From Podarcis cretensis (lineage: Eukaryota): 64,000 nucleotides of DNA. This document shows positions 35,901-38,900 of this stretch, one piece after another. The DNA is taken from the NCBI GenBank assembly GCA_951804945.1, contig OX638154.1, forward strand, positions 45,384,001-45,448,000. The letters are read 5' to 3'. The translations under genes were made by a program, and so were the position numbers. Under the pieces are notes generated by a model. It was not told the DNA's origin. It worked only from the letters and a program-made list of their open reading frames with translations, and did no database searches. Numbering within the stretch: the stretch's first letter is position 1; every line of letters begins with the position of its first letter.

Positions 35901-38900
35901 AACTGCTGCCTGTTCCAGGCCTTTCTGGCACACTTGTACATTTCTCCAAAATAAGGAATTTCTCACCTGCCGGATAAGCGAGGCGTATGTGAAGGGGGGG
36001 CGGACATCTGCATTTTTGTAAAACTCATGATTCTGCGCAAGTTCTAGGGGGAAGAAAGAAAGTTATGAAGAAAAGTAGCACACAATTCAGTCTAAGAAAC
36101 ACACAATTCAACCCAAACATAAAGTTGCAGCTGCAGTTTCCCCAGCTGCTCTCACCTGAGGAGATTGGCGTGCAGAACTTGTCTGAGTTCCTCCTGCGAA
36201 TAGGCCCTACATTGTGTAAAGTGGATGAGCTGATGACAGAAGGGCCCTGCCGCAATGGAGTAATGGGTGCAGTAGCAGAGGTGGGGGGATGAGGTAATCC
36301 ATCAGGGAAGGTATCAGAAGTGCTCTTGGAGAGAGTGGCGCTGGAAACCAGGTTCAGCTGCTCAAAAAGGATGACAAACTATTATTAGAATCAACCCAGG
36401 AGACAGAGAGGTGTCTGGGTAAGCAACAGTTTTCTATATGGACATAGCACATGGCTGCTCAACTTCTATCAATGAAGATATAGAGGTTGGGTGAAAGGCA
36501 GAGGCACACCACTGAGGGTCTACTAATCAATTCAGCAGCAAAGATTGAAACAGGCACCTCAGATAAGCACTTGAGACTCATCAACTACAATGGAAGGGCT
36601 CGATGTGGATGAGAAATCAGATCATACTCTGCAAACGTGAATGAAACCTGAAACTCTTTACTAGCTACACCAAAGCCAGTTGTTAGAAACGTGAAAGAAC
36701 CAGATGACCATCTAGTACAATATAAAGTATTCCTCCCTTGCTCAGTTTTTTTAATAAAAAAACTAATCCATAATTCTTGTCTGTAGCCATTTTTTTTCAA
36801 AGCAAATGGGAAGCCAAACTTTAGGAGGAACGGTTTTCAGTTACAGCTAGCACAATTTACCACCTGTACTGCAGACGGGGGCTGAAATTACAAGATAGTG
36901 GCTTGCATAAATCCAAACATGGTCCAAGTCTATGAATGTTTATTTAGAAGCAAGCAAGCATGCGCAGGTGGGGACCGTTAGTGAGCTCATGGCTTAGGCA
37001 AGATTTGAGCTAAGGGCTTCCTGGCTGAAAGTGTGCACTCTTAGCTACTATGCTACACCACTTCCAATGAGATTGTCTAAACTGCAGGTTAACTTGGGGG
37101 GAAATTAATTATCTGCTCATTTCATGAAGGTGATCAGGTAGTTGTGGATTTCATTTTAAAAACATTGTGGCATTGCCACAAGTGTCTCATTAGCAAATTG
37201 GAGCAATGCTGTCCCAGGATACAGCACAATTCCCAGTAGTTCATCAGTACCGTTATCTATAGTCATATTCTAACACTGACAGATAAGCATTATCTTTTGA
37301 AGATCAACAGCATCCATGTAAAATTTCATCTCTTGCCAAGAAAGAGGATTGCAATCATTTCATGAGTAAAAAAAAAATCAGGTCAGCTTATACAACCATA
37401 TATTGAAGCACTGCAGATGTCAGTGAGCTCTTGGGGTTCAGAATGTAATTCAGTGATATGCATGTACTTTCTCTCTCTTCCTTCCTCAAAACTGTAACCA
37501 CGGCCACCTCCCTTCTCATGAACAGGAGGGACTTTCAGAAACCACAGAGGGGAAACACATATTTTTATCATTGATGCAAGTTCTTCCAAGAGGGTCTCAC
37601 ACGCACAGATGTGAACTAGAACCTCAAGAGAGCATAGATGTCACCAGCTGCTTTTCCTGAGATAGATGTGGGTCTCAAACACCTTAAAATAAGGCAGCAC
37701 ATAAGGAAATAGGTCAGGAAGGAGCCAGTAACACACCCTGCAGGGTAGAGGACACTAGGGTATGTTTGTATCAGCTTTGATTTCAGAATTTGGTGTGCTG
37801 TTTCAGCACTTCCAAGCAGCACTTTTCAGCCTATGTCTATGCAGTTTGCAGGACTGACACAAGTAGTGTGGTCTTTCAACACAGCTGGCTTTCTAAACTG
37901 CGCAATGTGAATGCAACGATGGCCTGGGCACAGCCTGTCTTATCCCAATCCCCTTGCTTCACTCCTTGTGTACAATAGCAGCTTGGGCTATCTGGGCATG
38001 CTCTGTGAGCTGTTGCCTCTGGGAGGTTGTCTCAGTCTGGCTTGATGTTGTGAGAACAAGTGATTCTACCTGCCTGCAGAAAGGGCCAGCACAGGTACCT
38101 ATGGTTGTTTATATTTCTATAGCACCATCAGTATGCTTGCATGTTGTGAACCGCGCTGAGATCTTCAGATGAAGGGTGGTATATAAATGTAATAAATAAT
38201 AAAATAATAACATGCATGACAATTCGCAGAGTCCAAGAGGACAGGTTCCTCTCTCAAGGAGATTACTAAGCCTATACAGTTTGAGTTATGCCTCTGTGAA
38301 ATGCCATGGAGAAATGCAAGTGTAAAAGAGGACTTGGAGAAACAGATAGAGGAAAAGTATTGTTATTATAAAGAAGGGACAGCTACCTGGTGGTTCATGG
38401 GCAGTATCTGGCAGGCATTATGATATTACATGACCCTCTATGGCTGTGACTGTGGAAAGTGAAGCTCAAGCAAACAATGTTTGGGTTGTAGTAAAAGGGA
38501 GGATTCCGCAAGGGTGGAAAACTGGTAATCATCAGTTTAGGAGTTTCAATGGAGCGTAGATGTACCTTGGCTTCCTCACACCATCATGCCATCTACTAGG
38601 AGCCTAGTGGCTCAAAGGAACTCGTAGGAAATAGTTCCTGTTACTGTGAGTCTAGAAATGTTGTCACAGCCAGGGTTGCTTCAGCCCTGAGTGACTCTGG
38701 CAGGACAATATGGGCCTGAGGCTTGAGGTGGCAATCCCTATTAGAAAAGAAAGTGAGAGCGTAAAGGTGAGGAACAAACTGAGCATTGCTTACAGGCTGA
38801 CTGAACGGCTTTGGCTCTGAAGGTCTCATATGGAGGTGGGCCATCATCGCCTGGAGACGCTCACTCTCCTTAGCTAGCTGCAAAGAAAACCAAACAAGAA

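What the first reader, a model, noticed from the sequence alone, without database searches (positions are those of the whole stretch)
36324..38796. Intact PLNLV CtBP-binding motif built across a junction with three competing in-frame acceptors
Seen: splicing 38794 to 36357 gives FSQP|LNLVSS, i.e. PLNLV. Established: PLNLV mediates CtBP1 co-repression in FOXP1 and FOXP2, whereas mammalian FOXP4 has PLNPV and was reported not to respond to CtBP1. This lizard FOXP4 therefore appears to keep the motif. Also seen: the acceptor is tttttGAG CAG, and use of the first AG inserts Gln (PQLNLV). A third AG lies 33 nt inside the exon after its own pyrimidine run (CCACTCTCTCCAAG|, exon restarting at 36324) and would delete [11 protein letters not shown] in frame. 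I recall mammalian FOXP4 isoforms that skip the equivalent segment. Inference: acceptor choice could toggle CtBP recruitment in sauropsid FOXP4, and mammals lost the motif by point mutation.
Basis: partly seen in the sequence, partly recalled or inferred. Interest (0 to 1): 0.7.

Follow-up and report, generated by a model that had tools for sequence, protein, structure and literature searches.

The report
Lizard FOXP4 keeps ancestral CtBP motif
This lizard FOXP4 gene spells the PLNLV co-repressor motif across an old exon junction, as already published for reptiles and birds, and the only splice seen in RNA reads and reptile gene models keeps the motif whole, so the proposed splice switch is likely not real.

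Summary
The sequence facts hold: donor 38794 and three in-frame AGs (36360 GAG, 36357 CAG, 36324 AAG) give PQLNLV, PLNLV or an 11-residue deletion. The gene is lacertid-type FOXP4. That non-mammalian FOXP4 keeps the CtBP motif and mammals lost it by Leu>Pro is published (Viscardi 2017). The switch is not supported. In four RNA runs of a related species the only listed joint was 38794>36357 (7 reads; joints under 3 reads are not listed). Of 288 sauropsid FOXP4 records spanning the junction, none has PQLNLV and none the plain deletion; 64 of 65 lepidosaur and 16 of 16 crocodilian/turtle records read P|LNLV, while a true CAGCAG tandem in the same gene is annotated both ways. The same intron position occurs in FOXP1- and FOXP2-type records. 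PLNLV is not essential for FOXP2-CtBP binding (Estruch 2016). The scan held no earlier FOXP4 note.

The parts
38794..38877 (-). FOXP4 coding exon (end of leucine zipper region, LAKESERL...FSQP); supplies the Pro of PLNLV
38788..38793 (-). Splice donor GTAAGC, phase 0; no second GT within the next 7 nt, so the bird-type donor extension is not available here
   Evidence: used in reads
36358..38793 (-). GT-AG intron, 2436 nt, between Pro and Leu of PLNLV; same position in FOXP1-, FOXP2- and FOXP4-type records
   Evidence: joint; read-through records
36383..36394 (-). Branch-point-like TTGAT / CTAAT (A at 36391 and 36385, 34 and 28 nt above the main acceptor); predicted only
36361..36363 (-). GAG, proximal AG of a GAG-CAG tandem; would add Gln; use not seen
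   Evidence: sequence; 0 of 288 records; not listed
36358..36360 (-). CAG, the used acceptor (exon starts 36357)
   Evidence: 7 junction reads; 227 of 288 records
36156..36357 (-). FOXP4 coding exon beginning [11 protein letters not shown]; 100% identical in protein to Podarcis and Zootoca FOXP4 records
36325..36357 (-). 33-nt segment [11 protein letters not shown] ending in AAG (Lys codon); the inner AG, positionally matching the mammalian alternative acceptor after Ser-Lys; use not seen in lizards
   Evidence: 13 reads cover 36334
46843..46857 (-). GLDLS, a second PxDLS-like pentapeptide 133 residues upstream of PLNLV, untouched by acceptor choice; binding untested
49286..49294 (-). CAG-CAG tandem acceptor of another FOXP4 exon, annotated in both forms (with and without Gln); used here as positive control

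Best explanation
This is an ordinary FOXP4 intron whose CAG acceptor at 36357 joins Pro to LNLV, giving the PLNLV motif also found in FOXP1- and FOXP2-type proteins, and the neighbouring GAG and inner AAG are likely unused or used only at noise level in lizards. Shown: the junction, its use in reads of a relative, the same intron position in paralogue-type records, and Leu in fish, amphibian and sauropsid FOXP4. Inferred: U2AF-type selection passes over the weak GAG for the CAG 3 nt on (order CAG > TAG > AAG > GAG); the AAG exists because it is the conserved Lys codon of the Ser-Lys pair; lizard FOXP4 therefore likely carries the motif in nearly all transcripts and may bind CtBP as FOXP1/2 do, with PLNLV contributing but not acting as a sole switch. 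Inferred further: in mammals, after Leu>Pro removed the motif, the same Lys-codon AG likely became a real alternative acceptor (segment now ends SSSFSK followed by Val, which forces pyrimidine-rich codons and AG|G, in an intron of about 100 nt rather than 2.4 kb).
For:: only joint listed is 36357/38794, 7 reads over four runs (1, 1, 2, 3) from two studies; 13 reads cover 36334 inside the removable segment against a summed mean depth of about 11.5 in the bin 36248-36346, so no step up below 36324; of 288 sauropsid-type records with both exons, 227 P|LNLV, 0 P|QLNLV, 0 P|STSDTF; lepidosaurs 64 canonical of 67 (2 lack the upstream exon, 1 draft model with an insertion); crocodilians and turtles 16 of 16. 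One search, a search built to rank skip forms first, put no lepidosaur, crocodilian or turtle skip form among its best 120 of 1104 hits; the CAGCAG at 49291/49288 is annotated both ways in Lacerta/Podarcis, gecko and alligator, so these annotations do record real 3-nt tandems. (PMC2699507, passages): GAG-HAG tandems make up 227 of 331 cases of constitutive downstream use; 40 of 41 read-through records have a residue before the acceptor Gln/Lys that cannot be a NAG; motif retention and mammalian loss published. PLNLV not essential in FOXP2.
Against: The read sample is small and from a relative: 7 junction reads allow up to about 35% alternative use at 95%, joints with fewer than 3 reads are not listed, only 6-13% of each run was read, tissues are unknown, and the relative's intron end was not covered, so it may lack the GAG. 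Protein records are mostly predicted, redundant isoforms and only the best 120-150 of each search were seen. 24 bird records lack an intact LNLV through an extended donor plus an inner acceptor, and 35 have a donor extension or retained intron before LNLV. The inner AG is positionally the one mammals use. The same paper that calls GAG tandems implausible counts 182 alternative ones in TassDB.
Confidence: 0.8

Rival explanations
1. The inner AAG is an amniote-wide alternative acceptor, used at a minor or tissue-specific level in sauropsids, and the skip isoform lowers CtBP recruitment.
For: Mammalian FOXP4 records skip the matching 12 residues at the same Ser-Lys (P0124 ferret, P0125 rat, P0135 bat). 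16 bird models lack [11 protein letters not shown] wholly, 13 of them fitting the inner AG exactly. 11 of 14 positions above the AAG are pyrimidines. Truncations that remove PLNLV reduce FOXP2-CtBP2 signal progressively.
Against: No plain P|STSDTF form in 288 records; every bird skip model also carries donor read-through of variable length (VS, VSA, VSVR, VSAH, VSAHPPPAL), which resembles the mammalian VTVSA and also appears in four fish models, the pattern expected from projecting mammalian proteins onto other genomes (inference, not tested). None in lepidosaurs, crocodilians or turtles. Not listed in reads. PLNLV dispensable for binding in FOXP2.
Confidence: 0.1
2. The GAG-CAG tandem yields a PQLNLV isoform that breaks the motif.
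For: The pyrimidine run lies directly above the GAG (13 of 15 nt); it scores 1.9 bits, above all in-frame decoys of the gene but one.
Against: 0 of 288 records; not listed in reads, and exon-edge depth in two runs fits 11-nt overhangs (0.22 x 99 = 2 x 11); GAG is the weakest -3 base; 19 of 20 FOXP4-type read-through records cannot hold a NAG there (none is a named lizard, so conservation among squamates is untested).
Confidence: 0.04
3. PLNLV in sauropsid FOXP4 is kept for another reason (spacer after the leucine zipper, another partner) and FOXP4 of all vertebrates is CtBP-independent, so neither motif nor splice choice matters for CtBP.
For: FOXP2 residues 259-329, or a 122-382 fragment, suffice for CtBP binding, yet human FOXP4 does not bind, so loss of binding may map elsewhere. 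I found no paper testing non-mammalian FOXP4 with CtBP (searches; most subscription papers are not held).
Against: The motif is near-invariant in sauropsid FOXP4, FOXP1/2-type, hagfish and lamprey records and its loss coincides with loss of binding in mammals; mammalian FOXP4 keeps the upstream GLDLT and still does not bind, which points back to PLNLV as needed.
Confidence: 0.25

Closest known systems
Non-mammalian FOXP4 with LIG_CtBP_PxDLS_1 (Viscardi et al. 2017, PMC5409772; passages, section 7 part 1 and 12 of 16 supplements searched; cites Mendoza et al. 2015 for zebra finch, not seen)
   Same: Same gene, same motif, same Leu (zebra finch, canary, Anolis, Xenopus) versus Pro (human, bonobo, mouse) at aligned position 408; same proposal of extra repression capacity.
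   Different: That paper says nothing on splice acceptors in the parts read, and its Table S1 lists no opossum or platypus FOXP4, so the date within mammals is open.
FOXP1/FOXP2 CtBP interaction (Estruch et al. 2016, PMC5126810, passages and section 18 part 1; Li et al. 2004 known only as cited)
   Same: PLNLV after the leucine zipper, split by an intron at the same place.
   Different: Binding was measured for human FOXP1/2 and was absent for FOXP4; it has not been measured for this protein. PLNLV was not essential in FOXP2.
Mammalian FOXP4 short isoform (FSQP|VTVSAADSF)
   Same: Acceptor follows the same Ser-Lys pair; in-frame skip.
   Different: Removes 12 residues of an already dead motif (LNPV...), in a 96-111 nt intron with Val after the junction; the lizard intron is 2436 nt, Ser follows, and the skip is not seen.
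NAGNAG tandem acceptors (Sinha et al. 2009, PMC2699507, passages; Bradley et al. 2012, PMC3250501, passages)
   Same: GAG-CAG fits the NAGNAG pattern.
   Different: It is the GAG-HAG class, typically constitutive at the downstream AG; no dual use seen.

Membership tests
FOXP4 orthologue | Best matches are named FOXP4; exons in order along the locus | tested here: met
   named best hits are FOXP4 or FOXP4-like at 97-100%; Podarcis FOXP4 maps as 13 ordered pieces from 63107 to 11784
FOXP4 orthologue | FOXP coiled-coil and forkhead domains | tested here: met
   Precomputed PF16159 and PF00250 on the matching records; those parts map to the window
CtBP-binding PxDLS-like motif | Sequence fits the motif class | tested here: met
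   PLNLV matches a recalled ELM-style pattern; Viscardi 2017 reports the ELM match for the orthologous site
CtBP-binding PxDLS-like motif | Physical binding to CtBP that depends on the motif | not testable with these tools
Alternative NAGNAG acceptor | Two AGs 3 nt apart | tested here: met
Alternative NAGNAG acceptor | Both AGs used in transcripts | tested here: not met
   0 of 288 records; no such joint listed, shallow data from a relative; positive control tandem is recorded
Conserved alternative 3' splice site (33 nt) | AG at a homologous position in species that use it | tested here: met
   Ser-Lys boundary matches mammalian skip forms; judged from protein only
Conserved alternative 3' splice site (33 nt) | Use in lizard transcripts | tested here: not met
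   minor use below the listing threshold is not excluded
Conserved alternative 3' splice site (33 nt) | Use in other sauropsids | tested here: inconclusive
   Bird models only, always with an extended donor; no bird reads examined

The most novel reading that the evidence does not exclude
The AG of the conserved Lys codon is an old amniote alternative acceptor: in sauropsids it is used in some tissues to cut the CtBP motif out of FOXP4, tuning co-repressor recruitment of FOXP1/2/4 heterodimers, and mammals fixed the CtBP-off state by Leu>Pro while keeping and strengthening the skip.
Probability: 0.07. Interest if true: 0.55.

Novelty: already known. Interest (0 to 1): 0.17.

Why it matters
As it stands, little: it re-finds a published difference between mammalian and other FOXP4 proteins. 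What stays open and testable is whether non-mammalian FOXP4 really binds CtBP (no test found in the papers searched), which bears on songbird FoxP1/2/4 work, and when within mammals the Leu>Pro change and the 12-residue skip arose. A real splice switch would be a neat case of a regulated motif replaced by a fixed loss, but the evidence here runs against it in lizards.

Tried and rejected
Own-genome search for FOXP1/FOXP2 junctions: no genome is held for this window, so paralogue intron positions come from read-through protein records, assigned to paralogues by my own sequence patterns, not by database names. Sequencing-run search: no RNA holder listed on record for the window's own species; raw RNA reads were offered only for a relative (organism A, about 0.70 of the 3' UTR words). 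A profile meant to favour skip isoforms (alignment A1) misaligned and was not used; a region search with bird model P0268 was used instead. No marsupial, monotreme or amphibian FOXP4 was identified among my hits, so I could not date Leu>Pro more closely. No complex was predicted: no CtBP sequence was held; a preprint reports that AlphaFold3 gave no stable FOXP2-CtBP model (passages), which is no evidence either way. 'Motif built across a junction' as a special design was rejected: the intron is at this place in FOXP1-, FOXP2- and FOXP4-type records. The read pile at 38129-38227 is a dispersed repeat with unlike flanks, not an exon. Santos 2011 (PMC3002244), Rocca 2017 (PMC5429823) and den Hoed 2021 (PMC8339667), passages only, held nothing on this junction. 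Searches for a paper on this FOXP4 splice choice listed none; Mendoza 2015 and Li 2004 were not read. Supplements 13-16 of PMC5409772 (FOXP4 motif table among them) were not searched.

Full report
Observation. On the minus strand the exon 38794-38877 ends in CCT before GTAAGC, and the next exon region offers in-frame AGs that would start the exon at 36360 (after GAG), 36357 (after CAG) or 36324 (after AAG). The three joins translate as FSQP-Q-LNLVSS, FSQP-LNLVSS and FSQP-STSDTF. Such extra AGs are common: 10 of the 12 other acceptors of the gene that I located have two or more in-frame AGs within 60 nt, and one of them (63101) also has an in-frame AG 33 nt inside with 10 of 14 pyrimidines. A crude matrix from those 12 acceptors ranks 36357 (6.0 bits) over 36360 (1.9) and 36324 (-1.0), but real acceptors scored from -2.4 to 12.0 when left out, so it cannot exclude a site.

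Identity. The exon 36157-36357 is 100% identical in protein to Podarcis and Zootoca FOXP4 and 97-99% to bird, snake and crocodile FOXP4 (best 120 of 732 hits). Podarcis FOXP4 maps onto the window as 13 ordered pieces. It is a lacertid-type FOXP4.

Which acceptor is used, by reads. No RNA run was on record for the window's own species. I laid four raw RNA runs of a relative (organism A; two studies; 6-13% of each run read) on 36050-39000. The only joint listed is 36357/38794, a 2436-nt GT-AG intron, with 1, 1, 2 and 3 reads. Thirteen reads cover 36334, inside the segment that the inner acceptor would remove, against a summed mean depth of about 11.5 in the bin 36248-36346, so there is no step at 36324. 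Limits: joints with under 3 reads are not listed; 7 of 7 allows up to 35% alternative use at 95%; tissue is unknown; the relative's intron end was not covered.

Which acceptor is used, by gene models. Three searches (best 120 each) and three cluster look-ups gave 288 sauropsid-type records spanning the junction: 227 P|LNLV, none P|QLNLV, none P|STSDTF, 35 with donor read-through before LNLV (four of them retained introns), 24 with donor read-through plus an inner acceptor, and 2 others. One search used only the part below 36324, so it did not favour the long form; one search was built to rank skip forms first. Lepidosaurs: 64 canonical of 67 records (2 lack the upstream exon, 1 draft model has an insertion). 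Crocodilians and turtles: 16 of 16. These are redundant, mostly predicted isoforms, not independent observations. As control, the CAG-CAG acceptor at 49291/49288 of the same gene is annotated with and without Gln in lacertids, gecko and alligator, so these annotations do pick up a real 3-nt tandem.

Mammalian FOXP4 records from ferret, rat and bat join FSQP to VTVSAADSF, skipping LNPV...SSSFSK; the cut follows the same Ser-Lys pair as the lizard's inner AG. All 24 inner-acceptor records among sauropsids are birds; 16 lack the 11 residues wholly and 13 fit the inner AG exactly. But each has intron read-through of variable length at the donor (VS, VSA, VSVR, VSAH, longer), and four fish models show the same. 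This looks like mammalian proteins projected onto other genomes, the read-through mimicking VTVSA; that is my inference and was not tested with reads. The lizard donor has no second GT within 7 nt.

The GAG tandem. GAG is the weakest acceptor triplet, and GAG-HAG accounts for 227 of 331 cases of constitutive downstream use, though 182 GAG-containing alternative cases are on record (PMC2699507, passages); the -3 base largely sets whether a tandem is alternative (PMC3250501, passages). In read-through records, 19 of 20 FOXP4-type and 40 of 41 overall cannot have a NAG at this place; none is a named lizard.

The motif. Read-through records end in Gln or Lys before LNLV and continue Pro into Val-Ser (the donor) in FOXP1-, FOXP2- and FOXP4-type proteins (paralogues assigned by my patterns), so the motif has long been split by this intron. 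PLNLV or PLNLA is in carp and trout FOXP4, and in hagfish and lamprey FOXP. Viscardi 2017 (PMC5409772) already reports the ELM CtBP motif in FOXP4 of zebra finch, canary, Anolis and Xenopus, its loss in mammals by Leu>Pro, and a 3.7-fold higher omega in mammals; it cites Mendoza 2015 for zebra finch. Its species table has no opossum or platypus FOXP4. Estruch 2016 (PMC5126810) confirms that FOXP1 and FOXP2 but not FOXP4 bind CTBP1/2, yet finds PLNLV not essential: FOXP2 cut after residue 329 still binds. A second candidate, GLDLS (46843-46857), lies 133 residues upstream, which by spacing falls in that FOXP2 region (inference); it is outside the spliced segment, and mammalian FOXP4 keeps GLDLT without binding, so it is not sufficient.

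Mechanism. Most likely the CAG is the constitutive acceptor, the GAG is passed over, and the AAG is a Lys codon that is at most a cryptic site in lizards (0.8). Lizard FOXP4 then carries the motif in nearly all transcripts and may recruit CtBP; this is untested. The mammalian skip likely grew after the motif was lost: the segment now ends SSSFSK then Val (pyrimidine-rich codons, AG|G) in an intron of 96-111 nt, against 2436 nt here (only short in-frame introns can be seen in such records). The order of events is inferred.

Verdict. Observation true as sequence, competition not shown; evolutionary point already known; switch unlikely (about 0.07 for a functional one). The scan's own notes held nothing on FOXP4 or PLNLV. 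Interest 0.17.

Noticed in passing
window 49286-49294, minus strand: CAG-CAG tandem acceptor annotated in both forms (KE-Q-PLGNK versus KE-PLGNK) in lacertids, gecko and alligator: a conserved, apparently real NAGNAG in FOXP4.
   Followed up: partly
window 46843-46857, minus strand: GLDLS pentapeptide, conserved as GLDL(S/T) in FOXP4, FOXP2-type and hagfish records, by spacing inside the FOXP2 259-329 region mapped as sufficient for CtBP binding; a candidate second CtBP site.
   Followed up: partly
bird FOXP4 records, e.g. P0268, P0267, P0244, P0005, P0258: Models with donor read-through (VS, VSAH, VSVR, longer) with or without an inner acceptor; would break PLNLV if real; likely projection artefacts.
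   Followed up: partly
window 36358-38793: This intron is 2436 nt here but 66-111 nt in bird and mammal-type read-through records.
   Followed up: no
window about 38140-38210: Short dispersed repeat in the intron that collects many reads with unlike flanks.
   Followed up: no
window 46937, minus strand: Weak-looking acceptor (…ATGTGTGAAG) scoring lowest of the gene's acceptors; a gecko model has other residues at this junction.
   Followed up: no
records P0273 versus P0020: Lacertid isoforms differ by a 30-residue segment in the N-terminal Gln-rich part, upstream of the exons mapped in this window.
   Followed up: no
window 8254-8454: Run of 201 N (assembly gap) below the last coding exon.
   Followed up: no
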